NCBI GenBank assembly: GCA_963830115.1
Contig: CAWHLB010000027.1
Location: 409,246 to 473,245 of the forward strand
Direction: 5' to 3'
DNA from: an uncultured delta proteobacterium
Lineage (GTDB): Bacteria > Myxococcota_A > Polyangia > Polyangiales > CAWHLB01
Length of the DNA: 64,000 nucleotides
Below the pieces are notes generated by a model. The model did not search any database, had not been told where the DNA came from, and saw only the letters and a program-made list of their open reading frames with translations. Each line of letters opens with the position of its first letter. Within the stretch, counting starts at the first letter, position 1. The translations under genes and the position numbers were made by a program. Of this stretch, positions 16,952-64,000 are shown piece by piece.

Positions 16952-17073
16952 CCCTCCCGGCGGCCGCCCCTGCGCGCACCGCGACACGGTCCGCCGCCCA
17001 CGCCGCGCACCGCCGCCGCGCACCGCCACCGCTTGGGGCTCCTCTTCCGCCCCGGATCCGGTAGATTCCCTCG

Positions 17074-30943: not shown

Positions 30944-31070
30944 AACCGCGAACCACGCGCGCCGCGCCTGCGCGCGCCTACGTCCGTGATCTGTGGCAGT
31001 TGCGTCCGCGGCGGGGAGTCGGCAGGCTCTAGCCGCCGTGGGGCCCAATGCGCCTGCGGCGGATGCGGGC

Positions 31071-32502
<1,432 letters not shown>

Positions 32503-32531
32503 GGGGACGGGCCCGCCGGGCTCGGGCGGTG

Positions 32532-34520
32532 CTACTCGATCTGCGGGGCGCCGGCGGCGAGGGTCTGGAAGAAGGTGCGGACGCGGGCCTTGGCCGCATC
32601 GTCTTCGAAGATGGCGAAGTGGTCGTCGGCCGGGTACTGGGAGAGGCCGGCCGTCGCCGCGCCGCCTGCCACGTCGCCCGAGACCGGTGCATCGACCGGG
32701 GCGATACCCTCGAGCGCGAGGGCGTCGATGGGCTGGGCGATGGGCTTGACGATCGGGATGTGGGCCGCCGCCGCCAGGGACTCGATGCCGAGGGGCGGCG
32801 CCTCGGTGTCGCGTAGGCCTTCGGTCTGGAGGATGGACTTCGGGGCGAAGCCGGGGCGCGGGCTCGCGAACCAGAGCGAGGCGTAGTTGACCGGGTCGGA
32901 CGCCTCGAGCCAGGTCGCAAAGAGGGTCGTGGCGGGATGCTCGGGGCCGAAGTGCTCGGCTGTGAGCGCACTTACAGAGCCGCCGGGCAGGTTGAGCAAG
33001 AGGGCGACGAAGTCGATGAGCACGTAGGGCTCGGTCTTGTACAGGATCGCCAGGGCGAAGGTGCCCGCCGCGCCGCTCAGCAGGCCGCCCTTCGTCTGAT
33101 CGTCGACCGCGAGGAAGAGGGCGCCGTTGAGGGAGCCCTGGGAGTGGCCGAGGTAGTAGATGCGCGCCGGGTCGAAGTGGATGAGGGAGCCATCGGCCGC
33201 CGGCGGGAGCGTGGCTGCGGGGATCTGCACGCGCTTGGCGAAGCGGGCAAGCTGCACCTCGTCGAGCGCGCTCTGGATCAGGTTGTCGCGCGCCGCGAGC
33301 GGGTTCGCGAAGTTGAAGAGCAGGGCCCCCGAGTCGCCGCCGGTCGGGTTGCGCTCGCCATTGAAGACGGAGTCGATGCTGATGACGGCGAGCCCTACCG
33401 ACGAAAGCTCCTGTGCCTCGCCGTTGTTCACGAAGGACTCGTAGTCGCCATAGGTGCCGTCGGAGTAGAGGACGAGCGGCCAGCCCGCGGCGGGCATGTC
33501 TCCGTCCGGAATGGTCAGAGCGAAGCGCAGGTCGATCTCGTCCTGCACGACCGGCGCTCCGCCCTCGAAGTCGATGCCGCCGCTGCCGGGTGTGTTGTAA
33601 GGCGACGTGCCTTTCTGGAAGATCGGGGACGGGCCGTAGCGGCCGGTCATGAGCGAGTAGCCGCCCCGGTGGCTCGCGAAGCGCCAAGCCGAGCTCATGG
33701 CGTCGGGCGCCGTGTAGTGATCCATGACCCAGTCGCGCGCCGTCTTCATGTCGGCCGTCGGGTCCTGGGTCGTGAAGGGGGCGATGGCCAGCACGTCGTC
33801 GCGCGACACGCCGGCTGTCGCGAGGGCGTCGAGGGCCGCGCCGTAGGTGTCGCGCGCCGCCCGCACCGTGGCGTCGCCGCCCATGCCGTCGGCCAGGGCC
33901 GCGAAGTCGTCGTCGCGCGCGAAGGTGCCGCCCGCCGCCGGGAGCACACCCTTCGTGACGACCGCGACGTAGTGACGCGCGGGCGCGAGTGGGATGCCGA
34001 ACACGGGGCGGATGGCGACCGTGTGGGCGGCCCAGTACGAGGTCGCCTCGTCCTCGTAGCGGACGACGCAGGGATGGCGCGTGCCGAGGTCGGGGCTGTC
34101 CGGGTCGATGTCCATCAGGAAGACGCTCGCGCCGTCGGCGATGGTCGCGGTCGGCGTGTCCGGGAGGCTCGACGGATCGACCGAGGTGGAGAAGCGGAAA
34201 TAGGCGGCGCCGTTCAGGCCCCACCCCGTGAGGTGGGTCGAGATGGCGTCGATGTAGTCGCTCACGGTGACCGCGTGGCGCGGGTTCGGGAAGTCGCGCA
34301 CGTCGATGTCCCCGTCGGCGGTCTTCCGGAGATTCGTCGGCCAGGGCAGATCGAAGAACGCCCCCTCGGCGCCGTCACGCGGCAGCACGAAGACGGCATG
34401 GGGCGGAGCCGAGGGCGCCATCGTCGTCCCCGATCCCGACCCCGACGAGCACCCCGTGACGAGCACGAAGACGAAGGCCAGGCCGACCGATGAACGCGCC
34501 CGAAGCACGACAGCCAGCAT
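32532..34520 (-). CDS. Lipoprotein with a probable alpha/beta-hydrolase (serine hydrolase) domain
   Basis: Lipobox LVTGCSS. Nucleophile-elbow-like YYLGHSQGS. 662 aa, no closer family recognised. Confidence 0.55.
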   Translation of the reverse strand: MLAVVLRARSSVGLAFVFVLVTGCSSGSGSGTTMAPSAPPHAVFVLPRDGAEGAFFDLPWPTNLRKTADGDIDVRDFPNPRHAVTVSDYIDAISTHLTGWGLNGAAYFRFSTSVDPSSLPDTPTATIADGASVFLMDIDPDSPDLGTRHPCVVRYEDEATSYWAAHTVAIRPVFGIPLAPARHYVAVVTKGVLPAAGGTFARDDDFAALADGMGGDATVRAARDTYGAALDALATAGVSRDDVLAIAPFTTQDPTADMKTARDWVMDHYTAPDAMSSAWRFASHRGGYSLMTGRYGPSPIFQKGTSPYNTPGSGGIDFEGGAPVVQDEIDLRFALTIPDGDMPAAGWPLVLYSDGTYGDYESFVNNGEAQELSSVGLAVISIDSVFNGERNPTGGDSGALLFNFANPLAARDNLIQSALDEVQLARFAKRVQIPAATLPPAADGSLIHFDPARIYYLGHSQGSLNGALFLAVDDQTKGGLLSGAAGTFALAILYKTEPYVLIDFVALLLNLPGGSVSALTAEHFGPEHPATTLFATWLEASDPVNYASLWFASPRPGFAPKSILQTEGLRDTEAPPLGIESLAAAAHIPIVKPIAQPIDALALEGIAPVDAPVSGDVAGGAATAGLSQYPADDHFAIFEDDAAKARVRTFFQTLAAGAPQIE

Positions 34521-35654: not shown

Positions 35655-37533
35655 CACAGCGCCTCCCGGATCGCGTGCGCTTCGAGGTCGGCGACACTTG
35701 AAGGGCTTGCCCGGTGACGCTTGCTGGTAGCCCTCCGCCGGCATCAGGTACGCGGCGCGCAGCACCTTCACGAGCTGCCGTTGTTGATCTCGGGGACGAG
35801 GACCTTGCCGAAGCGCCCGAGCAGCGTCGCCGAGCTCGCGCGGGAAGCGGGCTCAGGTGGCGCAGGTGCACGTGGGAGACGCGCCGCCCCTCGCGCGCAA
35901 CCGCCCCACCGCCGCGTGGATGGCGCCGTAGGTCGAGCCCCAGCCGACCACCGCCACGTCCCCGTCCTCGTCGCCGAGGTCGACGCAGGCCGGGGCAGGC
36001 GTCGGCGATCCGCGCGATCTTCTCGGCGCGCACCTTCGGTCATGCGCTGGTGGTTGTCCGGGTCGTAGGAGATGTTGCCCGTCTCGTAGCTCTTCTCGAG
36101 GCCGCCGATGCGGTGCTCGAGGCCGGGCGTGCCTGGCACCGCCCAGGCCCGCGCGAGGGTCGTCTCGTCGCGCACGAAGGGCGTGAAGCCCTCCGGGTCC
36201 GTCGCGGAAGCGCGACCGGGAACCGCTCGAAGCGACTCGCACGTCCGGGATGCGCCAGGGCTCGGCGCCGTTGGCGAGGTAGCCGTCGCTCAGGACGATG
36301 ACGGGCGTCATGTGCCGGGTCGCGATGCGCACCGCCTCGATGGCGATGTCGAAGCAGTCGCCGGGCGTTGCCGGCGCGAGGACGGCCACGGGCGCGTCGC
36401 CGTTGCGCCCGAAGAGCGCCTGCAAGAGATCGCTCTGCTCGGTCTTGGTCGGCATGCCGGTGGACGGGCCGGCGCGCTGCACGTCGACGACGACCAGGGG
36501 CAGCTCGGTCGCCACCGCAAGACCGATGGCCTCCGCCTTGAGGGCGAGGCCGGGGCCCGAGGTCGCGGTCACGCCGAGGGCACCGCCGAAGGACGCGCCG
36601 ACCGCCGCGCTCACCGCCGCGATCTCGTCCTCCGCCTGGAAGGTGATCACGCCGAACTGCTTGAGCGCCGCCATCGCGTGCAAGAGCGTCGAGGCGGGCG
36701 TGATCGGATACGACGCGTAGACGAGCGACAGCTCCGCGAGCTTCGTACCCGTCGATGAAGGCCCCAGGCGAGGGCCTGGTTGCCACTGATGTTGCGGTAG
36801 ACGCCAGGCTCGAGCTCGGCCGGCGGCACGCGCCACACCCCGATGCCACTCGGCAGCTCCGCGGTCTCGCCGTAGGCATGGCCCGCCGACAGGGCCGCCA
36901 CGTTCGCCTCCGCGAGATCGGGCCGGGTCGCGAACTTCGTGCGGAGCCAGCGCTTGGTCGGCTCCGGGTCGCGCCCGAAGAGCCAGAACACGAGGCCCAG
37001 GGTCCACATGTTCTTGCAGCGGTGCGGCGTCCTTGGCGCCGAGCCCGAAGGGCTGCACGGCTGCCAGGCTGAGCGGCGGTGATGTCCAGCTCGAGCACGC
37101 GGTAGGCATCGAGCCCGCCGGCCTCGAGGGGGTTGCTCGCGTAGCCCGCCTTCTTGAGGTTCGCGGTGCCGAAGGCGCCCGTGTTGACGATGAGCAGGCC
37201 GCCGCGCTTGAGGTCGCCCAGGTTGGTCTTGAGGGCGGCCGGGTTCATGGCGACGAGCACGTCGGGCTGGTCGCCCGGCGTCGTCACATCGTGGGACGCG
37301 AAATGGATCTGGAAGCCCGACACGCCGTAGAGGCTGCCGGCGGGCGCACGGATCTCGGCCGGGAAGTCGGGGAAGGTGGCCAGGTCATTGCCCATGATCG
37401 CGGTGGTATGGGTGAACTGGCTCCCGGTGAGCTGCATGCCGTCGCCGGAGTCGCCGACGAAGCGGACGACTGCCTGCTCGAGCGTGCGTGGCGTGCGCTC
37501 TTCGGGCGTCGAAGAAAGGGCGGGCGTCTCCAT
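35654..37533 (-). pseudogene. korA: 2-oxoglutarate/2-oxoacid:ferredoxin oxidoreductase alpha subunit, at least eight frameshifts as assembled
   Basis: ATG at 37533 after GAGGA. Pieces: VRFVGDSGDGMQLTG.. / NMWTLGLVFWLF.. / ASYPITPASTLLH..GVTATSGPGLALK..QRAGPSTGMPTKTEQSDL / [13 protein letters not shown].. / VVGWGSTYG.. / PFK..ADLEAHAIREAL-stop. Confidence 0.8.
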
Positions 37534-37711
37534 CGAATCGTCCTCGTGACCACCAGGCGGTGGCGTTTGGACCGCATATATGGAGGGCGTCCGGGGATTG
37601 CGCCACCCCCGGGGGCCGATCGGGCCGCGGCGGACCCGGAGGGAGGAGCCCCGGGTCCGAGACGACACTCCCCTGCGCCGGGGGACGCGCTTGGGGTATC
37701 GTTGTTGCCCG

Positions 37712-38444
37712 ATGCGAATAGACCAGGGTCAGATGGCGCTCCAGCTCGTCCGCGAGAGCCTCGAGGGTGTCGTGGCGCCCGATATCGTGTCGGTCGTGCT
37801 CTTCGAGGCCCTCGACCACTTCGGAGCGGACATCCCCCGGACGCCCCAGGACCTGCTCGCCTTCGTGGACGCGGAGCTGTCCGCCGCCCTCGTGACGCGG
37901 CTCGGTGGTGCCGGCGCCAAGACAGCCCTGGAACGCATCCGACTCGTGCTCGAGCCGATGCTGCGCCTGGGCCCCAGCACAGCCGAGGCCGTGGACCCGG
38001 ACCCGGAGGCGAGCTGGCGCAGCGACCCGGCGGCCACCGTCACGACCCGCCGCCTCGAGCCGAGCCTGGGTCCGGTCCGGATGCTGGTGGTCGCCGACAG
38101 CGACCGCCTCGTCGGCCGCCTGCGGGCCGCCCTCGGTAGCACGCGGCTGATGGCGGCGCGGGTGCCCGGCATCGACCGAGTGATGGAGGTCGCTGCCGGT
38201 CTGCGTCCGAGCATCATCCTGCTCGACGGCGGTGACCTGCCCACCCTCTCGCCCGACGAGGTCGCGAGCTCCCTCGGAGCCATGCCCGCCACGACCCTGG
38301 TGCTCCTGTGGTCGTCGGGGGGACGGGCCGGTCGATGCCGTCGGCGACGCGATGCGCCGGGCGCAGGTCCCCTTCGTCCCGCTGGAGCGTACGGAGGGCG
38401 TCGGCCCACTCCTCGACATGATCCGGTCCCGCGGCAACGCCTAG
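37712..38444 (+). pseudogene. Hypothetical protein with a receiver-like C-terminal domain, one frameshift near 38320
   Basis: ORF 37580..39247 carries the N-terminal part. The tail continues in ORF 38232..38444 (GPVDAVGDAMRRAQVPFVPLERTEG..). The receiver-like segment reads VRMLVVADSDRL..IILLDGGD. Confidence 0.4.
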
Positions 38445-51989: not shown

Positions 51990-54326
51990 GTGACGCGCTT
52001 GGTCTTCCTGGTTGCTCTGACCGGCGTCGCGGTCGTCGCTGGCGGCTGCGACGGGGGCGCTGGTTCTCCCGACGCGGGGACCGCCGACGGGGCTTCGCCC
52101 GAGGCGGGCGTCGATGCGGGGCCGCCGCCTCCGGCCCACGCGGCGGCTACGCCCCTCACAATGTGGGTGAGCCCGCTCATCGGGACCGGTGGCCTCGGCT
52201 ACGGCGTGGGCAGCGCCTTCCCGGGCGCCCAGCGGCCCTTCGGCATGGCGCGTCCCGGCCCCGACACCACCGACGCGAGCGGCGCGCCCGGCTTCGACCA
52301 CTGCGCGGGCTACTACTACGCCGACCCCATGATCCGCGGCTTCGGTAATACGCACCTGCACGGCACCGGGATCCCCGAGTACGGCACGCCGGGGCTGATG
52401 CCGACGGTCGGCATGTCGGCCGACAAGACGCGTTGGCAGGGCTACGCCTCGGCCTTCTCCCACGACACGGAAGAGGCCTCCCCCGGCTACTACGCGGTCA
52501 CCCTCGCCGATACGCACGTGCGCGTGGAGCTCACCGCCACCGACCACGTCGCCTTTCACCGCTACACGTTCCCGGCGGGCTCGGACGCGGTGGTCCTGCT
52601 CGACGCGGGCTACTTCCTCGCCGACCTGACGCCCGTCGACGCCAGCGTCACGATCGACGCCGCCGCCCGCACGATTCACGGCTTCGGCACGGTGCGGGGC
52701 GGCTACTCCGGCCGCTTCGGCGGTGTGACGGTCTACTTCGCGGCGCGCTTCTCGCAGCCCTTCGCGCGCTTCGGCGCGTGGAAGGCCGGAGCGCTCCACG
52801 ACGGCGAGACGACCGAGAGTGGCACCGACGCCGGCGCGTACGTGCACTTCGATACGAGCACCGACACCTCGGTCGACGTGGCCGTCGGCCTGTCCTTCGT
52901 CGACGAGGCCCACGCCCAGATGAACCTCGACGCCGAGGCGACGGGCGTGGGCTTCGACGCCGCGCGCACCGGAGCGGAGCAGGCCTGGGAGAGCGCCCTG
53001 TCGCGGGTGTCCATCGAGGGCCGAAGCGACGACGGATTCCGCATGTTCTATACGGCCCTCTACCACGCGCTGCTGATGCCCACCCTCGCGAGCGACGTGG
53101 ACCAGAGTTACCGCGGGATGGACAAGGCCGTCCACACGGCCGACGGCTTCCGCTACTACACCGACTTGTCGCTCTGGGACACGTTCCGCACCGAGCACCC
53201 CCTGCTCACCCTGCTCTACCCCGAGTACCAGCGCGACATGCTGCGCTCCCTGACCGCCATGGCGCGCGACGGCGGCTACATGCCCCGCTGGCCCCTGGGC
53301 GACGGCTACACCGACGGCATGGACGGCGAGAGCGCGTGTGTCGTCTTCGCCGACAGCTGGGTGAAGGGGATCACCGACTTCGATCTGCGTACGGCCTACG
53401 ACGCCATGCGGCGCACCGCGATGGCGCCGGTCCCGGGCGGCGCACCCTACGGGGGCCGCGGCGGCGTGAGCGACTACATGGCGAAGGGCTACGTCCCCAT
53501 CGAGGCGAGCGGCGGCAGCGCCTCGGCGACCCTCGAGTACGCCTACGACGACTTCGCCCTCGCCGAGCTCGCGGACGCCCTCGGCGAGTCGGCGGATGCG
53601 ACGATGTTCCGCGCGCGCGCCGGCAGCTGGAAGAACCTGTGGGACGCGGACGCGGGCTTCCTGGTGGGCCGCCACGAAGACGGGACCTTTCCCCCCAATC
53701 CGCCCGCCTTCGAGTGGTCCGACTGGTACACGGAGGGCGACGCTTGGCAGTACCTCTGGTACGTGCCCCAGGACCTCACCGGGCTCGCTCGCACGCTGGG
53801 CGGAACCGACACGATGCTCGGGCGCCTCACGATGTTCTTCCAGCACTCGAAGCAGGAACCCGTCCTGCTCGGGCCGGCCCACTGGTACTGGCACGGCAAC
53901 GAGCCGGACCTGCACGTCCCCTTCATCTTCGCCGCCCTCGACCACCCGGACGAGGGCGCGCCCTTCATCCGATGGGTGCTCTCCTCGCGCTACGGTACCG
54001 GCCCCGACGGTCTGGCGGGCAACGACGACGCGGGCACCCTCAGCGCCTGGTACGTCTTCGCGGCCTCCGGCTTCTATCCGATCGCAGGCGAGGACCGCTA
54101 TCTTGTCGGCACGCCAATCCTCACCCACGTGACGATGCATCTGCCCGGCGGCGACTTCGTGGTCGACGCGCCGAACGCGAGCGACCAGTCGCTCTACGTG
54201 ACGGGTGCGACCCTCGGCGGGATGCCCCTCACCCGCGCCCACTTCCAGCACGCCGACATCACCGGCGGTGCGACCTTGCACCTCGACATGGCGGACGCGC
54301 CAGCAGGCTTTGGCGAAGGCCCCTGA
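51990..54326 (+). CDS. Glycoside hydrolase family 92 (alpha-mannosidase) lipoprotein
   Basis: GTG at 51990. Lipobox VVAGGCDG. GH92-like blocks (GFDHCAGYYYADPMIRGFGNTHLHGTG, SHDTEEASPGYYAV, LWDTFRTEHPLLTLLYPE, GNEPDLHVPFIF, GNDDAGTLSAWYVF). Confidence 0.85.
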   Translation: MTRLVFLVALTGVAVVAGGCDGGAGSPDAGTADGASPEAGVDAGPPPPAHAAATPLTMWVSPLIGTGGLGYGVGSAFPGAQRPFGMARPGPDTTDASGAPGFDHCAGYYYADPMIRGFGNTHLHGTGIPEYGTPGLMPTVGMSADKTRWQGYASAFSHDTEEASPGYYAVTLADTHVRVELTATDHVAFHRYTFPAGSDAVVLLDAGYFLADLTPVDASVTIDAAARTIHGFGTVRGGYSGRFGGVTVYFAARFSQPFARFGAWKAGALHDGETTESGTDAGAYVHFDTSTDTSVDVAVGLSFVDEAHAQMNLDAEATGVGFDAARTGAEQAWESALSRVSIEGRSDDGFRMFYTALYHALLMPTLASDVDQSYRGMDKAVHTADGFRYYTDLSLWDTFRTEHPLLTLLYPEYQRDMLRSLTAMARDGGYMPRWPLGDGYTDGMDGESACVVFADSWVKGITDFDLRTAYDAMRRTAMAPVPGGAPYGGRGGVSDYMAKGYVPIEASGGSASATLEYAYDDFALAELADALGESADATMFRARAGSWKNLWDADAGFLVGRHEDGTFPPNPPAFEWSDWYTEGDAWQYLWYVPQDLTGLARTLGGTDTMLGRLTMFFQHSKQEPVLLGPAHWYWHGNEPDLHVPFIFAALDHPDEGAPFIRWVLSSRYGTGPDGLAGNDDAGTLSAWYVFAASGFYPIAGEDRYLVGTPILTHVTMHLPGGDFVVDAPNASDQSLYVTGATLGGMPLTRAHFQHADITGGATLHLDMADAPAGFGEGP

Positions 54327-54509: not shown

Positions 54510-55325
54510 TCAACTCTCTTCGTCGCGCAGGGCGCACACGAAGACGGCGTCGTCGAGGACGTAGAGGGGGGCGTGCGTGTCGCCGCGGCAGAGGTAGGGG
54601 GCGCGCGACAGGGCGATCACGTCGAGGCCGTGGCGGGCGAACAGGCGTGCGGCGAGGATGGCCGCGGCCACCTCGAAGGCGCCGCGCGCGTCGGGCAAGG
54701 GCTCGTCCGGATCGACCGTGTGGGGGCCGACGTGCACGTGGGGCGAGAGGGGCAGCGGAACGGCAGCCACGAGGCGCCCGCCGGGAGCGACCAGGGCGGC
54801 GGTGCGCGCGAGCAGGGTGTGCGGCCGGCTCGTGCGGTCGAGGACGTCGAGCAAGGACACGACGTCGAAGGGGCCGGGCTCCGGCAGATCGTCGGTCGCC
54901 AGATCGATGCGATGGCAACGAACGCCTCGCCGTGTGAGCCGCCGTGCCATGGGTCCGGACAGCTCGGTCGTCACGACCTCGTCGAACAGAGGCGCGATCT
55001 CGGCGGTCACCGCTCCGTCCCCCGCGCCCACGTCGAGGAGCCGGCCGCCCGTGCCCGCGCCGAGCAACCGCCGCCATTGCGAGGTGCCGAGCAGACGCAT
55101 CGTATGGGTGCCGAGCCAGCCGTTCGCGTCGTAGTCGCTCACGAGCTGGCCGGCGAGGCCGTGCAGAAACGTCGCCAGGGGACCGTGGGGCCGCCCGAGC
55201 ATCGCGTCGATCCACGTCCGTGTCGCGTCGTCGAGCGACAAGGAGACGAAGCGCTCCGCGAGCGAAGGCGGAAGCCGCGTCAGCTCGCAGCCGTAGCGCA
55301 GCTCCATCCCGCGGTAGACCACCAT
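54510..55325 (-). CDS. Class I SAM-dependent methyltransferase resembling the METTL9/DREV family (eukaryotic protein-histidine N1-methyltransferase)
   Basis: ATG at 55325. Contains [40 protein letters not shown], and a C-terminal [22 protein letters not shown]. These are colinear with my recollection of human METTL9 ([51 protein letters not shown]). Confidence 0.65.
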   Translation of the reverse strand: [271 protein letters not shown]

Positions 55326-55383
55326 CGGCGAAGCCCCTTCGCGCGGCCCGCCCGAGCGGGCCCCCTCAACCGGTGACGCGCGA

Positions 55384-55878
55384 TCAGGCGCCCCCCAGCA
55401 CGCCCTCGATCGCCTCCCGGACCTCGGCCGCCTCGGGCGTCGTCCGGGGCGAGAAGCGCGCCACGATGCGGCCCTCCCGATCGATCAGGAACTTGGCGAA
55501 GTTCCACGCCACGTCTCCCGGGCCATCCGGCGCGGTCGCCTGGGACGTGAGCCAGTCGTACAGGGGCGCGCGACCTTCGCCATTGACGTCGATCTTGGCG
55601 AACATGGGGAACTTCACACCGAAGTTCGTCGTGCAGAATTCCTTGATCGTCGCCTCGTCGCCCGGCTCCTGGGCGCCGAACTGGTTGCACGGGAAGCCGA
55701 GCACCTCGAGGCCCTTTTCCCGGTAGCTCTCGTAGAGCTTCTCGAGGCCCTCGTACTGCGGCGTGAGGCCGCACTTGGAGGCGACGTTGACGAGGAGCAG
55801 GGCCTTGCCGGCGTAGTCGCCGAGCGAACGCTCCTGGCCTTCGATGGTCTTCATCGCGAAGTCGTGTGCAGTGGTCAT
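55384..55878 (-). other. Glutathione peroxidase (Cys-type) module with its own ATG; a fused domain or a separately translated gene
   Basis: MTTAHDF..LLLVNVASKCGLTPQY..GFPCNQFG..WNFAKFLI. The catalytic residue is Cys (TGC), not a TGA Sec codon. Confidence 0.85.
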
Positions 55879-58800
55879 GGCGGGAGCTTCCGACAGGGGC
55901 GGCGGCGTTTCAAGGGCCGCGGGATCGTCCCGCAGCCCTTCGGCGATCGCGCGCCGCCGGTCTTCGAGGAGCGCCTCGACGCGCTCGGCGAGGGCGGCCT
56001 TGCCCAGACGCCGGAGCGACGCCGCCGTCTTCTCCATCACGCGATGCGTGAGGATCTCGTCGTTACTCGCTTGCGCGAACATATCGATGAAGCGCTCGAC
56101 GCGACCGTCGAGTTGCTCGTCTTCGAGCTCGACCGCGACGAACGCGTCGAGGGCGAGCAACGCCGACAGCCACCACTGGCCCCCGCCCGCCTCCACGTCG
56201 CGGATGAAGTGCGGCAAGCGCTCGCTCAGGGACGCGTAGCGGCCCGTGAGGGCGTCACAGTAGAGCTCGGTGAGGGCGAAATCGGCGCTCAAGACGCCTC
56301 GCCGGTTCTCCATGGCCTCGCCAATCAGCGCGCGCGCCGTCTCCATGTCGTTCAGGACGACGTGCATCTCGGCCACGGACAAGAGATGGATCTGGATCGA
56401 CCTGGCGACGTTCCAATGGCGCGCACCCTCGAGCGCCCTCTGCTCCAAGGCCAGCGCCGCGTGGGGGTCGCCGCGCCTCAGTGCGATCTGCGCCAGCAGA
56501 TGCCAGGCCCGGTGGGATTCCTTCGGGCCGCCGAGGACCTCGAGGGCTTCGCACGCTTCGCGCGCAATCCGCTCAGCCGTCCGGAAGCGGTCCGTGTAGA
56601 AGGCGATGGCGGCTTCGCGCAACCGGCATGTCAGACGCTGCCGTTCGTCACCGAGGCGTGCGAAGAGGGCGCCCACCTCGCGCGTCAGAGCGAGGCTCCC
56701 TTCGTAGTCGAGCGCGTTGTAGCTCTGGAGGGCTTCGGCATCGAGCACGCGAGCGTGTCGCATGTCGACCTCCGGCACGCCGTCTTCGTCGAGCCACCTC
56801 TTGGCGTCCGAGAGGTGCGCCGCGCTCCGTACGAGGTCGGCACGGCGAAGGAGCCCACGCACCGCTTCGAGCTTGGGCCCCCAGGCGCGCTCGGGCTCTC
56901 CTGCGTTTCGGAAGAGGTCGGCGGCGCGGGCAGCGGCCTCCGGGACGTCGTCGCCGTAGGTCGAGACGAGAGCCTCGGCTGTCTGATGCAGGACCGTGCG
57001 GCGCGCTGGCTGCTGCGCGAGCCGCGCGAGCAGCGTCTCCTGGAGCAAGCCGTGCTCGAAGCGGTAGGCGGCTCTTCCGTCATGGACGCGCAACAGGCCT
57101 TGCAGCAGCGCGCGATCGAGCACCGCGTCCACGAGGGCCGCGACCTCCGGTGCTTCGGCCACCGCGGCGCGCAGGGCACGCTCTTCGAAGGGGTGGCCGA
57201 GCAGGGCCGCGCGGAAGAGCACGCCTTCCGCGTCCGGAGCCCGGTCGCCGAAGGCACCGAGCAGAAGCTCGATGCGTCGTGTGAGCACCGCCTCCACCGG
57301 ACGGGCCGCGATCAGGTCCCGGGGCGTGGAGCCGTCGCGGGGCACCCATCGCTCGCCCTCCGGTACGAGCAGGCCGCTCTCGATCCAGTCGTGCATGCGC
57401 TGCACCAGGAGGAGCGGCGTCTCGTCGAGCGCGTCGGCGATGGAACGAGCAGTCTCGGACGCGAGCGGTACGATCGAGGAGAGCAGCTCGCAGCGGTCGG
57501 CCGCGTCGAGCCGCCCGAGCTCGCGCACGCTGACCTCCGGACGTGCGGCCAGGGCCTCGAGCCTTTCGCGCATGGCGGGATGGTCCGCCGTGCCCGAGCG
57601 CAGCGTGAGCACGAAGAGCACCGAGGCGTCCTGGGACGCGAGGAGCTTCTCCACCAGATCGAGCGCGCCGTCGGACGACCAACCCACGTCGTCGAGCCAG
57701 ACGTAGACCGGCCGGACGCGGCTCATGGCCCGCAGCGCGGCGGCAGCCAGCTCGATGCCCTGCGCTCGAGACAGGGTCGTCGCGCCGCCGGGCGTCAGCC
57801 AGGCGAGCATCTTCGATGCGGCGAAGGGCAGGGGCTCGCCGTGCCGCAGGAGCCAGCTCCACTCCGCGGGGAAGCCCGCCTCCGCACGGACCCCCGGCAC
57901 GCCGAGCAGCCGGCGCAGCACATGACGCAGCCCCGCTCCCGTCTCCGCGCGGGAGAGATCGTAGCCGGCCGCGGCCCCGTCCATCCTCGCCGCCTCCTCG
58001 ACGTGGCGGAGCCCAAAGCGGGCGAGGCGGCTCTTGCCGACGCCGGCCTCGCCGAGCCACGCCACGACCCGCACGCCCCCGAGGACGCACACCTCGTCCA
58101 CCCGCTCCGCGAGCAGCGCGCGCTCCGTGCTTCGCCCCGCCACCGGCAGCGTGCGAAGGCGGTGCAGAGGCCCGAGGTCCGCCACGTCCCGCGCCTCGAA
58201 GTAGCGCGGGAGCGGGCTGTCGGTGGGCGCGGCGTGAGGCGATTCGCTCGCGAAGAGGGTGGTGTGCTCGGGGCTCGAAGCGAGCCGGGTCGGATCGGTG
58301 GCCTCGTCCTCGAGCGCGTCGGCCGAGGGCATGGTCGCATCGATGGCGAGGGTGTCGGTCAGGATGCGGGGGACGCCGTGGCGGACGATGCGATCGTCGA
58401 CCCGTCCCGAGAGCCGCTCGAGGGCCTCGCGCAGCTCGGAGGCGAAGCGTGGCCTGCGTCTCGGGGCGGGCCCGAGCAGGGAGGCGACGAGCGAGGCGAG
58501 CTCCTCCGGGATGAAGAGGCCCTTGCGCGGCTCGAAGGCGACCGGCGCGCCGCGGTCCTTGGCCCGTCGCAGGGTGTCGAGTGTGTCGAGCTCGAAGGGC
58601 GCCCGTCCGGTGATCAGCTCGAAGAGCATCACGCCGATCGCGTAGAGATCGGTCCAGGGCCCCAGTATACCGTCCACGCGAAACTGCTCGGGCGCCATGT
58701 AGGCGGGCGTGCCGGCGGGTAAGGAGACTTGGCTCGTCTCGCGGAGCGTATCGAGCACCTTGGCGATGCCGAAGTCGGCGATCTTGATGTGCCCTTCAGC

Positions 58801-59211
58801 GTCGCGCAGCAGGTTGGCCGGCTTGAGGTCGCGGTGGACGATCCCCGCGCCGTGGGCCGCCGCGAGCCCTGCGAGCACATCGTCCATCGCGTGGGCGACG
58901 GCGTCCCACCCGGGCCAGGACAGGACCCAGCTCCCCACGTCGCCACCTTCGACGAGCTCCATCACGAGGCCGGGGCGTCCGCTCGCGTCGCGCACCACGT
59001 CCAGCAGCTCCACGATGCGTGGATGCCGCAGGCGCGCTGCCGTGGCGGCCTCATCGAGCAGGAGCCTCCGGATGCGGCCGTCATCGACGAGACGATGGGG
59101 CACCTTGATCGCGACCAGGCGCCCCGAGGGCCGGTGTACGGCGCGCAGCACCCGACCCATTCCACCGGTGCCCAAGACGCCGTCGATCTCGTAGCGCCCG
59201 TGCGCAGCCAC
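55384..59211 (-). CDS. Ser/Thr protein kinase + P-loop NTPase (AAA_16/STAND-like) + TPR-like region, reading in frame into a C-terminal glutathione peroxidase domain
   Basis: Kinase motifs HRDLKPANLL, ADFGIAKV and GTPAYMAPE. Walker A GEAGVGKSRL. About 600 aa of helical repeats. The last 164 aa are a GPx. The start is set to GTG 59211 because it aligns with the ATG and upstream leader of the paralog; the ORF track starts at TTG 59247. Confidence 0.85.
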   Translation of the reverse strand: MAAHGRYEIDGVLGTGGMGRVLRAVHRPSGRLVAIKVPHRLVDDGRIRRLLLDEAATAARLRHPRIVELLDVVRDASGRPGLVMELVEGGDVGSWVLSWPGWDAVAHAMDDVLAGLAAAHGAGIVHRDLKPANLLRDAEGHIKIADFGIAKVLDTLRETSQVSLPAGTPAYMAPEQFRVDGILGPWTDLYAIGVMLFELITGRAPFELDTLDTLRRAKDRGAPVAFEPRKGLFIPEELASLVASLLGPAPRRRPRFASELREALERLSGRVDDRIVRHGVPRILTDTLAIDATMPSADALEDEATDPTRLASSPEHTTLFASESPHAAPTDSPLPRYFEARDVADLGPLHRLRTLPVAGRSTERALLAERVDEVCVLGGVRVVAWLGEAGVGKSRLARFGLRHVEEAARMDGAAAGYDLSRAETGAGLRHVLRRLLGVPGVRAEAGFPAEWSWLLRHGEPLPFAASKMLAWLTPGGATTLSRAQGIELAAAALRAMSRVRPVYVWLDDVGWSSDGALDLVEKLLASQDASVLFVLTLRSGTADHPAMRERLEALAARPEVSVRELGRLDAADRCELLSSIVPLASETARSIADALDETPLLLVQRMHDWIESGLLVPEGERWVPRDGSTPRDLIAARPVEAVLTRRIELLLGAFGDRAPDAEGVLFRAALLGHPFEERALRAAVAEAPEVAALVDAVLDRALLQGLLRVHDGRAAYRFEHGLLQETLLARLAQQPARRTVLHQTAEALVSTYGDDVPEAAARAADLFRNAGEPERAWGPKLEAVRGLLRRADLVRSAAHLSDAKRWLDEDGVPEVDMRHARVLDAEALQSYNALDYEGSLALTREVGALFARLGDERQRLTCRLREAAIAFYTDRFRTAERIAREACEALEVLGGPKESHRAWHLLAQIALRRGDPHAALALEQRALEGARHWNVARSIQIHLLSVAEMHVVLNDMETARALIGEAMENRRGVLSADFALTELYCDALTGRYASLSERLPHFIRDVEAGGGQWWLSALLALDAFVAVELEDEQLDGRVERFIDMFAQASNDEILTHRVMEKTAASLRRLGKAALAERVEALLEDRRRAIAEGLRDDPAALETPPPLSEAPAMTTAHDFAMKTIEGQERSLGDYAGKALLLVNVASKCGLTPQYEGLEKLYESYREKGLEVLGFPCNQFGAQEPGDEATIKEFCTTNFGVKFPMFAKIDVNGEGRAPLYDWLTSQATAPDGPGDVAWNFAKFLIDREGRIVARFSPRTTPEAAEVREAIEGVLGGA

Positions 59212-62200
59212 GCCTGTCACTCTGCCACGGCGCCGCGCGATACCCAATCACTCCCGGCGGCCTCGCTCAGGCGTCTCTTGGGTTCTCCCCCAGGGCCTCG
59301 GCGATCGCGTGCCGGCGTTCGGCGAGCAGCGTTTCGACGCGTGCAGCGAGCGCGTCCCGTCCGAGACCCCGCAGCGACGCCGCCGTCTTCTCCATCACGC
59401 GGTGCGTGAGGGGCTCGTCGTTGGCTACGCGCCCGAAGGCCTCGATGAAGCCTTCGACACGATGGTCGAGGTCTTCGGCCCGGAGCTCGACCGCCACGAA
59501 GGCGTCGAGCGCCTGCAGCGCCGAGAGCCACCACTCGCCCCCGCCCGCCTCCACGTCGCGGATGAAGTGGGGAAGGCGCTCGCTCAAGGCGCCGTAACGC
59601 CCCGTGAGGGCATCGTGGAAGAGCTCCGTGAAGCCGACTTCCAGCGCGAGGGCGCCGCCGTCGCCGAACGCTTCGTCCAGGAATGCACGGGCCCTCTCGA
59701 AGTCGTTCAGGACGAGGTACATCTCCGCCAAGGACACGAGGTCGACCCGGACCGACCAGGCCTGGCCCAATCGGCGCGCCGCCTCGAGCCCCTTCTGCGC
59801 CGGCACGATCGCGGCCTCGGGCCGGCCGCGCATCTGCTCGATCTGGGCGAGCAGGTGCCAGGCCAGGTGGGCTTCGGGGGCACCGATGGCCTCGGCCGCG
59901 TGGGCCACCTCGCGGGCGATCTGCTCGGCCCTCGGGAAGTGATCCGTGTAGAAGGCGATGGCCGCTTCGCGCCACCGGGACACGAGGCGGTGCCGCTCAT
60001 CGCCGAGGCGCGCGAAGAGCGCCGCGGCCTCGCGTGTGAGGTCCAGGGCGCGGTCGTATTCGAGCGCGTGGTAGCGCACGTGGGCCTCGGTATCGAGCAC
60101 GCGGGCGCGTCGTGCGTCCAGCTCCGGCACGTGGTCGGTTTCGAGCCACCGGCGTGCGGTCTCGAGGTGCTCGGCAGCCCGGACCAGCCCCGCCCGACGG
60201 ATGTGTCCCCACACCGCATCGAGCTTGGGCCCCCACGCGCGATCGGGCTCGCCCGCCTCGCGGAACAGGTCGGCGACACGCGCGGCCACCTCGGGGTGCT
60301 CGTCCCCGTAGATCGTGAGGAGGGCCTCGGCCGTCTGATGGAACGCAGCGTGATGGACCGGCTGCCGTCGCAGCCGCTCGAGCAACGCCTCGTGGAGCAG
60401 GCCGTGCTCGAAGCGATAGGCCGCCGCCTCGGCGTCGACGCGCAGGAGGCCCTGGAGCAGGGCGCGATCGAGCACCGCATCGACGAGGGCCGCGACGCTC
60501 GCGTCACCGGCCGCCGCCGCACGCAGGGCGCGCTCTTCGAAGGGCTGGCCGAGCAGTGCCGCGCGAACGAGCACGCCCTCGGCGTCGAGAGCGCGGGTAC
60601 CGAAGGTCCCGACGAGGAGGCTCGATGCGGCGGGAGAGCAGCACGTGCACCGGGCGCGCCGCGATCAAGTCCTGCGCCGTGCTGCCGTCCCGGGGCTCCC
60701 AGCTCTCGCCACGCTGCACGAGCAGGTCGCTCTCGATCCAGTCGTGCATGCGCTGCACCAGCAAGAGAGGGGTCTCGTCGAGCGCGTCGGCGAGCGAGCG
60801 ACCGATGGCGGGCGCGAGGGGCACCACCGACGAGAGCAGCGCGTGACGGTCCGCGGCGTCCAGGCGGGCCAGCTCGCTCACCGTCACCTCCGCCCGCGCC
60901 GCGAGCGCCTCGAGCTTCGTGCGCACGACGGGATGGTCCGCCGTGCCCGAGCGCAGCGTGAGCACGAAGAGCACCGACGCGTCCTGCGCCGCGACGAGCC
61001 GTTCCACCAGATCGAGCGCGCGGTCGGACGACCAGCCCACGTCGTCGAGCCAGACGTAGACCGGGCGGACCCGGCTCGCGGCGCGGAGCGCGGCCGCGGC
61101 GAGGTCGACGGCCTGGTCGGGCGGCGGGATGGCGGAGCTGCCCGGCGCGAGCCACCCGAGCATCTTCGAAGCGGCGAAGGGCAAAGGCTCACCTTCGCGC
61201 AGCAGCCACTCCCACTCGGCGGGGAAGCCAAGCTCGGTCTGCTTCCACGGCACTCCGAGCAAGCAGCGCAACAGGTGACGCAGCCCGCCGGTCTCCGCAC
61301 GTGAGAGGTCGTAGCCGGCTGCGACGCCCTCCATGCGCCCCGCCTCCTCGACATGGGAGAGGCCCCAGCGACAGAGGCGGCTCTTGCCGACGCCCGCTTC
61401 GCCGATCCACGCCACGACCCGCACGCCGCCGCCCGAGCACACCTCGTCGATGCGGCGTACCAAGAGCCGCGCTCCGCGCGTCGCCCCGCCACGGGCAGGG
61501 TGCGGAGCCGATGGAGGGCGCCAGCGTCGGTCGCCTCCTCGGCTTCGAAGTATTCCGGCAGGAGGCTGTCTGGGCCGCTCGCGCTCGGCGATCCGGCCCG
61601 AGCGAGCGTCGTGTCGTCGGTCCCGCGCAGGAGCGTCGGCGCGGTGGCGTCGTCGACATCGCTCGGAGTGAGGTTCGATGGCTCCGTCGCGTCGAGGGTG
61701 ACCGCACCGATTGTGAGAGCGCCAACAGCGGGCTTCGGGTCGATGCGACCGGCGACCCGATCCTCCACGCCCCCGGCGAGCCGCGCGAAGGTCGCCCTGA
61801 GCTCGGACGCGAACCGCGGCCTATTTCTCGGGGTGGGGTCGAGCAGGGAGGTCACGAGAGCACCGAGCCCCCGCGGCACCGACAGCCCCTTGCGCGGCAC
61901 GAGGGGGCCGGGGGTGCCGACGCGCTTGGCCTCTCGAAGGGTGTCGAGGGAGTCGTCGTCGAAGGGCGCGCACCCACAGATCAGCTCGAAGAGGATCACG
62001 CCGAGCGCATAGAGGTCGGTCCAGGGGCCGACCATCCCGGCGATGCGGAACTGCTCGGGAGCCATGTAGGCGGGCGTGCCCGCGAGCAGGGGCGCCTTGC
62101 CCGTGTCGCGCAGGGTGTGAAGCACCTCGGCGATACCGAAGTCGGCGATCTTGACGTGTCCGTCGGCGTGGCAGAGCAGGTTGGCGGGCTTGAGGTCGCG

Positions 62201-62576
62201 GTGGACGATGCCGGCGCCGTGGGCGGCTGCCAGCCCGGCGAGCACATCGTCGACCGCCCGGGCCACGGCGTCCCAGCCGGGCCACGACAAGGTCCAGCTC
62301 CCGATGTCGCTGCCCTCGACGAGCTCCATGACGAGACCCGGGCGCCCGTCCGCGTCGTGCACGACGTCGAGCAGCTCCACGATGCGCGGGTGTCGGAGCT
62401 GGGCCGCCGCCGCAGCCTCGTCGAGCAGGAGCCGCCGCGTGCGTCCGTCGTCGAGCGTCCGGTGGGGCACCTTGATCGCGACGGCGCGGCCCGAGGGGCG
62501 ATGCACCGCCCGCAAAACCCGCCCCATCCCACCGGTGCCCAGGACGCCTGCGAATCTCGTAGCGACCCGCAGCCAT
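55879..62576. repeat. Tandem duplication of a ~3.3-kb kinase-NTPase-TPR gene (two diverged copies)
   Basis: The translations of the two copies are colinear and roughly 70-80% identical by eye. The similarity extends into the 5' leader (GGCAGAGT..AGG-[A/G]TGGCTGCG). Confidence 0.8.
59267..62576 (-). pseudogene. Paralogous Ser/Thr kinase + P-loop NTPase + TPR protein, three frameshifts as assembled
   Basis: ATG at 62576 (MAAGRYEI). The frame breaks near 62550 (before GVLGTGGMG), near 61450 (before VRRIDEVCSGGGVRVVAWIGEAGVGKSRL) and near 60570. The pieces are ORFs 60884..62728, 60504..61463 and 59267..60574. Confidence 0.8.
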
Positions 62577-62660
62577 CCTGGAGACTCTGCCACGGTCGCG
62601 CCCGCTTCCCAATCTCTCCGCAGCGTGCTTATCGTGGACGCCCCGCCCTGGCCATCGACC

Positions 62661-63500
62661 ATGCGCTTGCCCGTCCGGCCCAACCCCGAGATCACCGCCC
62701 GCGTCGCACGGCTCGAGGTGCCCTTCAACGTCCACGGGCTCGACCGCTATGGCGCGGACACGGCGGAGCTCGCCCGCTTCTTCACGCTCCTCGGCGGGTT
62801 CTACCACCACTATTTCCGCGTCCGGGTCCATGGCATCGAGCACGTGCCGCCGCGCGGGCGCGCCATGCTCGTCGGCAACCACTCGGGCGGCATCGCCTTC
62901 GACGGCATGATGGTGATCGCGCTCGGCCTTCTTCGAGATGGACCCGCCGCGCCTCGCCCAGGGCATGGTCGAGAAGTTCCTCAGCCAGTTGCCCTTCTCC
63001 TCCGAGCTCGTCGACCCGTGTCGGTCAGCTCACGGGTCTGCCCGAGCATGCCGAGCGCCTGCTCGAGGACGAACGCCTCCTGATGGTCTTTCCCGAGGGG
63101 GCCCGGGGCACGGCCAAGCTCTTCACCGCAGCGCGACACCCTCGTCGCGCTTCGGCACCGGGTTCCTCCGCCTCGCGCTCGAGTACCGGCACGCCCATCG
63201 TCCCCTTCGCGTTCGTCGGCGGCGGCGAAGCGGTCCCGACGGTCGCGAACCTCTACACGCCTCGGCCGTTTCCTCGGCGTTCCCTACCTGCCCGTGACGC
63301 CCTGGGGGCTGCCCCTGCCCTTGCCGGCCCGCTTCGACATCCTGTACTCGGCGCCCATGCGCTTCGACGGAAACGGCACCGAGACCGACGAGGTCATTCA
63401 AGGCTGGGTGCTCGAGGTGGAGGCCCGCATCGCGTCGCTCATCGGGCGTGGTCGCGCGCTCCGGGAGGGGCGCATCGCCGAGGAGGAGGTCGCGCGATGA
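62661..63500 (+). pseudogene. Lysophospholipid (PlsC-family) acyltransferase, several frameshifts as assembled
   Basis: Pieces: MLVGNHSGGIAFDG (HX4D-type block) / MDPPRLAQGMVEKFLSQLPF / MVFPEGARGTAK / FGTGFLRLALEY / PFAFVGGGEA / [22 protein letters not shown]..-stop at 63500. Confidence 0.65.
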
Positions 63501-64000
63501 AGGTCGTCGTGACGGGGGTGGCCGGCAAGATCGGCGGGCTCGTCGGGAGGCGTCTCGCCGAGGCCGGGCACACGGTCTTCGGCATCGATCGGCGGCCGTG
63601 GCGCGACGCGCCCGACGGGGTCGAGGTGATCGAGGCGGACATCCGCAAGCGGCCCGCCGAGGACGTCTTCCGCGACCCGGCGCCCCGACGCGGTCGTGCA
63701 CATGGCAACCGTCACGCACATCACACACAGCGAGCGAGGAGCGCTACCGCATCAACCTGCAGGGCACGCGCGCGGTCTTCGATCACTGCCACCAGTACGG
63801 GGTCCAGTCGCGCGATCTTCGTCGGCCGCCACACCTATTACGGCGCCGCCCCCGACTCGCCCCTCTACCACACCGAGGACGAGCCCCCGATGGCCGTGCA
63901 CACCTTCCCGGAGCTGAGCGACCTGGTCGCCGCCGACCTCTACGCCGGCTCGGCGCTGTGGCGCTACCCGGAGATCGACACGGCCGTCCTGCGCGTCTGC
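63497..64000 (+). pseudogene. NAD-dependent epimerase/dehydratase family protein, partial at the right edge, with three compensating frameshifts between ~63680 and ~63810
   Basis: ATG at 63497 overlaps the upstream TGA (ATGA). Contains the Rossmann motif [12 protein letters not shown]. The conserved pieces [11 protein letters not shown] / [22 protein letters not shown] / [11 protein letters not shown] lie in different frames. Confidence 0.6.

What the first reader, a model, noticed from the sequence alone, without database searches (positions are those of the whole stretch)
54510..62576. Co-directional cluster: two tandem kinase / P-loop NTPase / TPR paralogs, a glutathione peroxidase module and a METTL9/DREV-like methyltransferase
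Seen in sequence:
- On the minus strand, the order is paralog 2 (62576 to 59267), paralog 1 (59211 to 55384, whose last 164 codons are a GPx), then a methyltransferase (55325 to 54510).
- The gaps are only 55 nt and 58 nt, so a single transcript is plausible.
- Both kinases keep the catalytic motifs (HRDLKPANL, DFG, APE) and a Walker A (GEAGVGKS), followed by about 600 aa of helical repeats.

Established knowledge: proteins built as an N-terminal effector, a STAND-type NTPase and a C-terminal repeat sensor act as ligand-triggered switches (MalT-type regulators, bacterial NLR/Avs-like proteins).

Inference: coupling such switches to a thiol peroxidase and a putative protein-histidine methyltransferase suggests a redox- or stress-sensing signalling module. 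I do not know of a described one with this composition.
Basis: partly seen in the sequence, partly recalled or inferred. Interest (0 to 1): 0.7.

Follow-up and report, generated by a model that had tools for sequence, protein, structure and literature searches.

The report
Tandem STAND kinases beside peroxidase, methyltransferase
Two duplicated sensor kinases of a known type sit next to an ordinary peroxidase gene and a methyltransferase gene; the "kinase-peroxidase fusion" and the broken second kinase are most likely single-base assembly errors, and the kinases are not found next to these genes in any other genome examined.

Summary
The gene order, strand, 55-nt and 58-nt gaps, motifs and domain content are real. 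Pfam finds Pkinase, AAA_16, weak TPR, GSHPx and DREV.

Two things differ from the description.
- **Paralog 2 is not an intact ORF.** Three single-base indels (about 62549, 61468 and 60620) split it over three frames. Once corrected it gives 1102 aa with no internal stop and dN/dS of 0.26-0.37.
- **The GPx "module" is a complete standalone-type peroxidase.** It is 164 aa with its own ATG. A TGA one base out of frame lies exactly where paralog 2 stops, so a 1-nt deletion created the fusion.

Other conserved genes in this window are also frameshifted (an NtrC-like regulator, a 2-oxoacid:ferredoxin oxidoreductase, an acyltransferase, an epimerase). Assembly error is therefore the likeliest cause.

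No other TPR+GPx fusion appeared in the 150 best-scoring of 1.84 billion representative proteins.

The kinases do appear to be STAND switches. The modelled NTPase-TPR part best matches PH0952 (6MFV).

Linkage to GPx and DREV is not conserved:
- 0 of 4 other kinase contexts;
- 0 of 84 DREV loci;
- 0 of 3 GPx contexts.

Only a GPx→DREV pair recurs, in one other lineage, with a stop/start overlap.

Verdict: ordinary members of known families, with low interest.

The parts
59267..62576 (-). Kinase paralog 2 (Hanks kinase, STAND NTPase, TPR). It is broken into three frames by single-base indels at about 62549 (+1), about 61468 (-1) and about 60613-60620 (+1).
   Evidence: The three ORF pieces are listed. 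Pfam finds Pkinase, AAA_16 and TPR_12 on separate pieces. The indels were mapped. The corrected reading is 1102 aa with no internal stop. It is 70% aa identical to paralog 1, with dN/dS 0.26-0.37 in every segment. The GC3 frame model follows the corrected frame. The source's own gene call for the last piece is P0243, 402 aa.
55910..59211 (-). Kinase paralog 1 proper. Kinase domain about 58438-59193, AAA_16 about 57610-58143, arm plus TPR sensor down to about 55900. Its inferred natural stop is the out-of-frame TGA at 55912-55910.
   Evidence: Pfam domains are. The public gene call is P0001. The TGA lies 38 nt after the anchor GCGATCGCC, against 39 nt in paralog 2, and family members end 0-10 residues after the same motif.
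55879..55909 (-). A 31-nt stretch read as the linker 'ETPPPLSEAPA' in the fused ORF. It is most likely the intergenic spacer, with a GGAAG Shine-Dalgarno-like element 9 nt before the GPx ATG.
   Evidence: The sequence is and the frame analysis. The Shine-Dalgarno reading is inference.
55384..55878 (-). Thiol peroxidase of the GPx/BtuE type, 164 aa, with its own ATG at 55878. It has the peroxidatic Cys (VASKCG), Gln (CNQFGAQEPG), Trp-Asn (WNFAKF) and a candidate resolving Cys (EFCTTNFG).
   Evidence: Pfam GSHPx scores 1.7e-40. The 120 closest homologs (65-75% identity) are all standalone proteins of 160-202 aa covering 90-100% of the query. The best hit to the GPx part among representatives is a standalone 164-aa protein.
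54510..55325 (-). DREV/METTL9-family SAM-dependent methyltransferase, 271 aa.
   Evidence: Pfam DREV scores 130.7 bits against a cut-off of 26. It matches PDB METTL9 chain 8gze at E 7.1e-30. The positions equivalent to D213/R214 (D163/R164) are invariant in 27 bacterial homologs. Orthologs at 50-62% identity are common in Myxococcota, including Sandaracinus amylolyticus.
55326..55383 (-). 58-nt gap between GPx and the methyltransferase.
   Evidence: The scan predicts no terminator. The fold is no more stable than shuffles, z -1.13.
59212..59266 (-). 55-nt gap between the paralogs. About 40 nt of it is conserved with the leader of paralog 2 (62577-62620).
   Evidence: The leader alignment is. 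There is no significant fold, z -0.49, and the scan predicts no terminator or promoter.

Best explanation
**What is there.** The region holds four ordinary, separate, co-directional genes of a Sandaracinus-like myxobacterium.
- Two are tandem paralogs of a PknK-like STAND Ser/Thr kinase.
- One is a standalone Cys-type glutathione-peroxidase-family thiol peroxidase.
- One is a bacterial METTL9/DREV-family methyltransferase.

**What is artefact.** The broken state of paralog 2 and the kinase-GPx fusion are products of single-base indels. These are most probably consensus errors of a low-accuracy assembly.

**Mechanism of the kinases (inferred from the family).**
- In the resting ADP-bound form, the arm and the TPR sensor clamp the nucleotide-binding domain.
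- An unknown ligand bound by the TPR sensor releases this autoinhibition.
- ADP is exchanged for ATP and the protein multimerises.
- This brings the N-terminal kinase domains together for trans-autophosphorylation and substrate phosphorylation.

**The other two genes.** The peroxidase reduces peroxides through its Cys and a resolving Cys. The methyltransferase is probably a protein histidine methyltransferase with unknown substrates.

**Linkage.** The four genes may share a transcript. However, the kinases are not functionally tied to the other two in any conserved way. At most, GPx and DREV form a small recurrent pair.
For: **Indels**
- Three 1-nt indels break an otherwise intact 1102-codon frame with no internal stop. 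The other five indels relative to paralog 1 are multiples of 3.
- dN/dS is 0.26-0.37 in every segment, including the out-of-frame one.
- The GC3 periodicity follows the corrected frame.

**Assembly quality**
- The Sigma54_activat domain of an NtrC-like gene is split between frames (profile 7-90 and 83-147).
- The POR domain of an oxidoreductase is split over three frames.
- The acyltransferase and epimerase genes at 62.65-64 kb hop between frames repeatedly.

**Fusion**
- The TGA at 55912-55910 is one base out of frame and sits exactly where paralog 2 stops. Homologs end there too.
- GPx has its own ATG and is full length.
- Among the 120 best kinase homologs, only the self-hit has GSHPx.
- No TPR+GPx protein other than self appears in the 150 best-scoring of 1.84e9 representatives.

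**STAND**
- The family mechanism is described in PMC6468293 and PMC4381067, which name PknK-type kinases as MalT-clade STANDs.

**No conserved linkage**
- Kinase, DREV and GPx contexts are all different elsewhere.
Against: - I could not see reads or a polished version of the assembly, so a biological origin of the indels is not excluded.
- Paralog 1, the DREV gene and the GH92 gene (about 7 kb together) show no frameshift, so the error rate is uneven.
- No close relative of this genome was available. The best kinase homolog is 44% identical and the best DREV 62%. Conservation within the immediate lineage is therefore untested.
- The short gaps and the absence of predicted terminators are compatible with an operon.
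- GPx→DREV adjacency recurs elsewhere.
Confidence: 0.75

Rival explanations
1. The indels are biological. Paralog 2 is a recently inactivated pseudogene after tandem duplication, and paralog 1 has truly captured the downstream peroxidase by losing one base before its stop. The result is a STAND kinase with a C-terminal thiol peroxidase that could act as a peroxide receptor.
For: The sequence as given reads this way, and the public annotation calls a 1275-aa fused protein. Tandem duplicates often lose one copy. Paralog 1 itself is free of frameshifts.
Against: There is no internal stop, and dN/dS is below 0.4 in the out-of-frame segment of paralog 2. Identical single-base frame breaks hit the NtrC-like, oxidoreductase, acyltransferase and epimerase genes in the same window, which is implausible as biology. 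The fusion is seen nowhere else among the listed hits.
Confidence: 0.1
2. Four separate genes form a lineage-specific operon that is functionally coupled. The STAND kinases sense a stress signal and regulate, by phosphorylation or co-expression, the peroxidase and a protein methyltransferase.
For: The genes are co-directional with gaps of 55, about 31 and 58 nt. There is no predicted terminator and no significant hairpin between them. GPx→DREV recurs with an ATGA stop/start overlap in L112 and in L118/L119, and as a divergent pair in L090.
Against: The kinase family never neighbours GPx or DREV in four other contexts. No NTPase-TPR relative occurs in 84 DREV loci. DREV orthologs at 58-60% identity sit between Lactamase_B and glycogen synthase genes instead. 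Both kinases carry their own conserved leader, which suggests independent expression signals.
Confidence: 0.12
3. The cluster is an anti-phage defence system of the NLR/Avs kind, with kinase effectors.
For: The architecture is STAND, and Avs5 and plant NLRs are among the weaker structural matches. PADLOC kinase models (PD-T4-6, mad6) hit the kinase domain.
Against: PADLOC hits cover only the generic kinase domain (residues about 13-320), and none covers the NTPase-TPR part. The best structural match is the MalT-like PH0952, not an Avs. The flanks hold housekeeping genes (GH92, acyltransferase) with no mobile or defence-island context. Family members sit in varied housekeeping contexts.
Confidence: 0.03

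Closest known systems
PknK of Mycobacterium tuberculosis and other MalT-clade STAND Ser/Thr kinases
   Same: Both have an N-terminal Hanks kinase, an AAA_16-type NOD, and an arm plus TPR sensor, with a total length of about 1100 aa. The literature places PknK in the same STAND subfamily as MalT (PMC4381067).
   Different: The ligand and substrates are unknown. This is a tandem pair in a myxobacterium.
PH0952 (PDB 6MFV) and MalT, STAND ATPases with a TPR sensor
   Same: The modelled NTPase-arm-TPR part aligns with 6MFV over 747 columns (E 3.6e-10, TM 0.48/0.55). The double-autoinhibition mechanism of PMC6468293 is the working model.
   Different: The effector is a kinase, not a DNA-binding domain. 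Sequence identity is only 14%.
BtuE / Cys-GPx thiol peroxidases
   Same: The GSHPx domain is complete with Cys, Gln, Trp and Asn, and the size of 164 aa fits.
   Different: The score against the NCBIfam BtuE equivalog (206.9 bits) is below its cut-off of 270. In this assembly the gene is read in frame with the upstream kinase.
Human METTL9 (protein histidine N-pi methyltransferase, DREV family)
   Same: It is a DREV domain match (E 7e-30 to PDB chains). The catalytic Asp-Arg (D213/R214) and the Y295/C297/D300 equivalents are present (PMC10308197).
   Different: The N210 equivalent is Asp, here and in Sandaracinus. The R123, H245, Y247 and E249 substrate-pocket equivalents differ. There is no signal peptide region. 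I found no characterised bacterial member in the papers I read, and the substrates are unknown.

Membership tests
Hanks-type Ser/Thr protein kinase | Pkinase fold with the VAIK Lys, HRD catalytic loop, DFG and APE. | tested here: met
   Pfam Pkinase scores 152 bits against a cut-off of 31.7. K48, H138, D140, K142, N145, D158-F-G and P186-E187 are invariant in the family alignment.
STAND NTPase (MalT/PH0952-like, TPR sensor) | P-loop NOD with Walker A and Walker B. | tested here: met
   AAA_16 scores 41.5 bits against a cut-off of 32.6. G399-x2-G-x-GKS and D519-D520 are invariant.
STAND NTPase (MalT/PH0952-like, TPR sensor) | NBD-HD-WHD-arm-repeat sensor fold. | tested here: met
   The model has pLDDT 89.5. 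The top Foldseek hit is 6MFV at E 3.6e-10 over 747 columns, followed by NB-ARC, Cdc6/ORC and Avs5. A sequence-only PDB search found nothing.
STAND NTPase (MalT/PH0952-like, TPR sensor) | Ligand-triggered ADP/ATP exchange and multimerisation. | not testable with these tools
   This needs biochemistry.
Kinase-GPx fusion protein | One continuous, conserved reading frame joining both parts. | tested here: not met
   The fusion is unique to this assembly among the listed hits. An out-of-frame TGA sits at the paralog's stop position. The window is rich in single-base frame errors.
Glutathione peroxidase family (Cys-GPx) | GSHPx domain with the peroxidatic Cys, Gln, Trp and Asn. | tested here: met
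   Pfam scores 137 bits against a cut-off of 27. The motifs were read directly in the translation. The BtuE equivalog cut-off is not reached.
DREV / METTL9 methyltransferase | DREV domain with a SAM-binding GxGxG and the catalytic Asp-Arg. | tested here: met
   Pfam scores 130.7 bits against a cut-off of 26. The PDB METTL9 match is E 7e-30. D98-x-G-A-G and D163-R164 are invariant.
DREV / METTL9 methyltransferase | HxH-directed histidine N-pi methylation. | not testable with these tools
   Pocket residues differ from human. Neither kinase has an HxH motif, GPx has a single His, and only DREV itself has HVH.
Conserved gene module (kinase + GPx + DREV) | The same neighbours in other genomes. | tested here: not met
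   0 of 4 other kinase contexts. 0 of 84 DREV loci have an NTPase-TPR relative. 0 of 3 GPx contexts.
GPx-DREV gene pair | Recurrent adjacency in independent lineages. | tested here: inconclusive
   The pair is co-directional with an ATGA overlap in L112 and in L118/L119. These are one related lineage, GC 56-59%. It is divergent in L090. That is 4 of the 60 loci with at least 600 nt upstream. It is absent from the closest DREV orthologs.
Known anti-phage defence systems (PADLOC) | A match of the NTPase or sensor to a defence model. | tested here: not met
   Only kinase-domain hits were found.

The most novel reading that the evidence does not exclude
The single-base deletion is real. Paralog 1 would then be a STAND kinase carrying a C-terminal thiol peroxidase that acts as a built-in peroxide receptor, in the manner of the yeast Gpx3/Orp1 relay. 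It would be co-expressed with a bacterial METTL9-type histidine methyltransferase that forms a recurrent pair with this peroxidase.
Probability: 0.08. Interest if true: 0.65.

Novelty: new member of a known kind. Interest (0 to 1): 0.2.

Why it matters
**Main value: a caution.** In this assembly, single-base indels create a spurious multidomain "fusion" and a spurious pseudogene. The public gene calls carry both forward (P0001 at 1275 aa, P0243 at 402 aa).

**Biology.** The kinases add two members to the PknK-like STAND kinase family, which is abundant in Myxococcota.

**One lead worth a small follow-up.** In one other bacterial lineage, a METTL9/DREV-family methyltransferase is translationally coupled to a GPx-type peroxidase. 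I found no characterised bacterial member of this methyltransferase family in the papers I read.

Tried and rejected
- **Genome-contig scan.** The scan with the kinase-family alignment was dominated by the generic kinase pattern GTPxYMAPE. It returned mostly unrelated kinases and did not recover the source genome, so it gave no useful neighbourhood statistics.
- **Source contig look-ups.** Exact look-ups through P0001 and P0121 found nothing on record, so the organism's name and its own annotation could not be read.
- **PDB sequence search.** The sequence-only search with the NTPase-TPR part gave no hit. The profile search with the whole family was swamped by kinase domains.
- **Signals between the genes.** The promoter and terminator scan found nothing. 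RNA folding of the three junctions and the 3' end was no better than shuffles.
- **RNA genes.** Rfam and tRNA scans found nothing in the region.
- **σ54 promoter.** I considered this for the conserved leader (…CGTGGCAGAGT…) and rejected it, because there is no TTGC at the -12 spacing.
- **HxH substrates.** I looked for METTL9-type HxH motifs in the cluster proteins. Neither kinase has one, and GPx contains a single His.


Full report
**Observation**

- The methyltransferase is at 54510-55325.
- A long ORF ends at 55384 and starts at 59211 (public call P0001, 1275 aa) or at 59247 (longest start).
- A second kinase-type gene lies upstream.
- The gaps are 58 nt (55326-55383) and 55 nt (59212-59266).

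Pfam supports the domain content.
- Paralog 1 has Pkinase (2.4e-44), AAA_16 (2.6e-10, above cut-off), a weak TPR_12 (below cut-off) and GSHPx (1.7e-40).
- The last gene has DREV (6.9e-38).

**Paralog 2 is not an intact gene in this sequence**

The stretch 62576-59267 is 3310 nt long. It is read in separate frames as 60884-62728 (kinase), 60504-61463 (AAA_16) and 59267-60574 (TPR), and the start codon at 62576 lies in yet another frame.

A nucleotide alignment with paralog 1 is 75% identical and shows eight indels.
- Five are multiples of three.
- Three are single bases: +1 at about 62549, -1 at about 61468 and +1 at about 60613-60620.

After correcting these three positions:
- The gene reads as 1102 codons with no internal stop.
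- It is 70% identical to paralog 1 at the protein level.
- dN/dS is 0.26 in the kinase, 0.32 in the segment that is out of frame, and 0.37 in the TPR part.
- A GC3-periodicity model of the window follows the corrected frame across all three breaks.

This is the signature of very recent or artefactual indels, not of an old pseudogene.

**The assembly carries many such indels**

- In an NtrC-like gene (30990-32816, +), the Sigma54_activat profile is matched at positions 7-90 in one frame and 83-147 in another.
- In a 2-oxoacid:ferredoxin oxidoreductase (35853-37728, -), the POR domain is split 2-115 / 124-172, and POR_N lies in a third frame.
- Directly upstream of paralog 2, an acyltransferase gene and an NAD-epimerase gene (62650-64000, +) hop between all three frames every few hundred bases. 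Their Pfam matches are cut short at 32/132 and 62/240 profile positions.

Several conserved genes broken in the same way within 64 kb is not plausible biology. It points to consensus errors. The contig is 966 kb, from a public NCBI/ENA assembly. I could not see the reads.

**The kinase-GPx fusion**

The GPx part is a complete gene in its own right.
- It starts with its own ATG at 55878.
- It matches standalone peroxidases of 160-165 aa over 90-100% of its length. All 120 closest homologs (65-75% identity) are standalone proteins of 160-202 aa.

The fusion is seen nowhere else.
- Among the 120 best homologs of paralog 1, only the self-hit has a GSHPx domain. The full-length family members (about 1040-1175 aa) cover about 80-86% of the query, so they lack the GPx part.
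- I searched 1.84 billion representative proteins with the last 487 residues (TPR end plus GPx). The listing shows the 150 best scores.
- A protein matching both parts should have outscored the GPx-only hits. None did, apart from this genome's own gene calls. The long multi-stretch hits I read (P0242, P0244, P0246) are tandem GPx repeats.

At the junction, a TGA at 55912-55910 is one base out of frame.
- It lies 38 nt after the anchor GCGATCGCC. The true stop of paralog 2 lies 39 nt after the same anchor.
- Family members end 0-10 residues after the same motif.
- One missing base in the last ten codons therefore explains the fusion. Paralog 1 would then end '...AIAEGLRDDPAxP'.
- A 31-nt spacer containing GGAAG follows, and then the GPx start.

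Given the local density of single-base errors, I rate an artefact as much more likely than a real fusion.

**What the kinases are**

- Both paralogs keep the catalytic Lys, HRD, DFG and APE motifs, and Walker A and Walker B. These are invariant in 20 family members.
- An AlphaFold model of residues 340-1122 of paralog 1, built with 52 sequences, is confident (pLDDT 89.5, pTM 0.82).
- Its best PDB match is 6MFV, the PH0952 STAND ATPase with a TPR sensor, aligned over 747 columns (E 3.6e-10). NB-ARC domains, SAMD9, Cdc6/ORC and Avs5 follow.
- PH0952 and MalT are autoinhibited by arm-NBD and sensor-NBD contacts that the inducer releases (PMC6468293).
- The same literature places PknK-type Ser/Thr kinases in this STAND subfamily (PMC4381067).

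I did not compare directly with PknK. PADLOC and NCBIfam hit only the generic kinase domain.

**Is it a module?**

Kinase side:
- P0002: NUDIX | kinase | ArsP permease.
- P0003: acyltransferase, divergent | kinase | a gene with no Pfam hit, then molybdopterin oxidoreductase.
- P0012: kinase | arginase, convergent.
- P0006: a gene with no Pfam hit (with a MoxR-like AAA gene further upstream) | kinase | NAGPA.
- None has GPx or DREV.

DREV side:
- Orthologs at 58-60% identity sit between Lactamase_B and glycogen synthase genes.
- In Sandaracinus amylolyticus the ortholog sits after a DUF2752 gene.
- In 84 DREV loci (80 from a metagenome scan), tblastn finds no NTPase-TPR relative.

GPx side:
- Three close relatives have unrelated neighbours.

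One link survives.
- A GPx gene lies directly upstream of DREV, co-directional, with an ATGA stop/start overlap, in L112 and in L118/L119.
- L118 and L119 are the same contig family. L112 and L119 show the same upstream ORF layout, so I count them as one related lineage (GC 56-59%).
- The pair is divergent in L090 (GC 71%).
- That is 4 of the 60 loci with enough upstream sequence.
- This looks like more than random neighbours would give, but it rests on one or two independent events. It is also absent from the closest DREV orthologs. I regard it as a lead only.

**The methyltransferase**

- It matches human METTL9 structures (E 7e-30).
- It keeps the catalytic Asp-Arg and the Tyr/Cys/Asp of the substrate channel.
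- Several pocket residues shown to matter in the human enzyme differ (PMC10308197).
- The N210 equivalent is Asp, here and in Sandaracinus.
- No HxH motif exists in either kinase, and the peroxidase has a single His.

**Transcription**

No promoter-like or terminator-like site is predicted between 54000 and 63500. The junctions do not fold better than shuffled sequence. Co-transcription is possible but untested. Both kinases are preceded by a conserved leader of about 40 nt, which argues that each copy kept its own upstream signals.

**Verdict**

The features are real DNA, and the domain calls are right. The unusual aspects are best explained by assembly errors: a fused peroxidase, a dead paralog and a composite signalling module. 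The kinases' position next to the other two genes is best explained by non-conserved adjacency. These are new members of known families, so interest is low.

Noticed in passing
window 30990-32816 (+): An NtrC-like response regulator is broken by two compensating frameshifts. REC and Sigma54_activat 83-147 lie in one frame, and Sigma54_activat 7-90 lies in another.
   Followed up: partly
window 35853-37728 (-): A 2-oxoacid:ferredoxin oxidoreductase is spread over three frames: POR 2-115, POR 124-172 and POR_N.
   Followed up: partly
window 62650-64000 (+): An acyltransferase gene and an NAD-dependent epimerase gene change frame every 150-300 nt. This is the most error-dense stretch seen, and it lies directly upstream of paralog 2.
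   Followed up: partly
window 46057-47340 (-): The GC3 frame model shows five frame switches in 1.3 kb, with a weak Sulfatase hit. The cause is probably more indels, or low-complexity sequence.
   Followed up: no
window 59212-59255 and 62577-62620 (-): A conserved leader of about 40 nt (GGAGnGATTGGG…CCGTGGCAGAGT) lies immediately upstream of both kinase start codons. It is more conserved than the coding average. Its function is unknown.
   Followed up: partly
L112 2862-4162; L119 2955-4264; L118; L090: A GPx gene and a DREV methyltransferase gene are adjacent in other metagenomic contigs. In L112 and in L118/L119 they are co-directional with an ATGA stop/start overlap. In L090 they are divergent.
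   Followed up: partly
window 54846-54848 (DREV residue D160): The position equivalent to human METTL9 N210 is Asp here and in Sandaracinus amylolyticus, and Asn in 25 of 27 bacterial homologs. The N210D mutation nearly abolishes activity in the human enzyme.
   Followed up: partly
window 54732-54740 (DREV residues 196-198): Bacterial DREV proteins carry a conserved PHVH loop. This is itself an HxH motif, the sequence that human METTL9 methylates.
   Followed up: no
window 51990-54326 (+): An intact GH92 alpha-mannosidase-family gene is convergent with the methyltransferase.
   Followed up: no
window 16878-16953 (+): tRNA-Met (CAT), the only RNA family match in the window.
   Followed up: no
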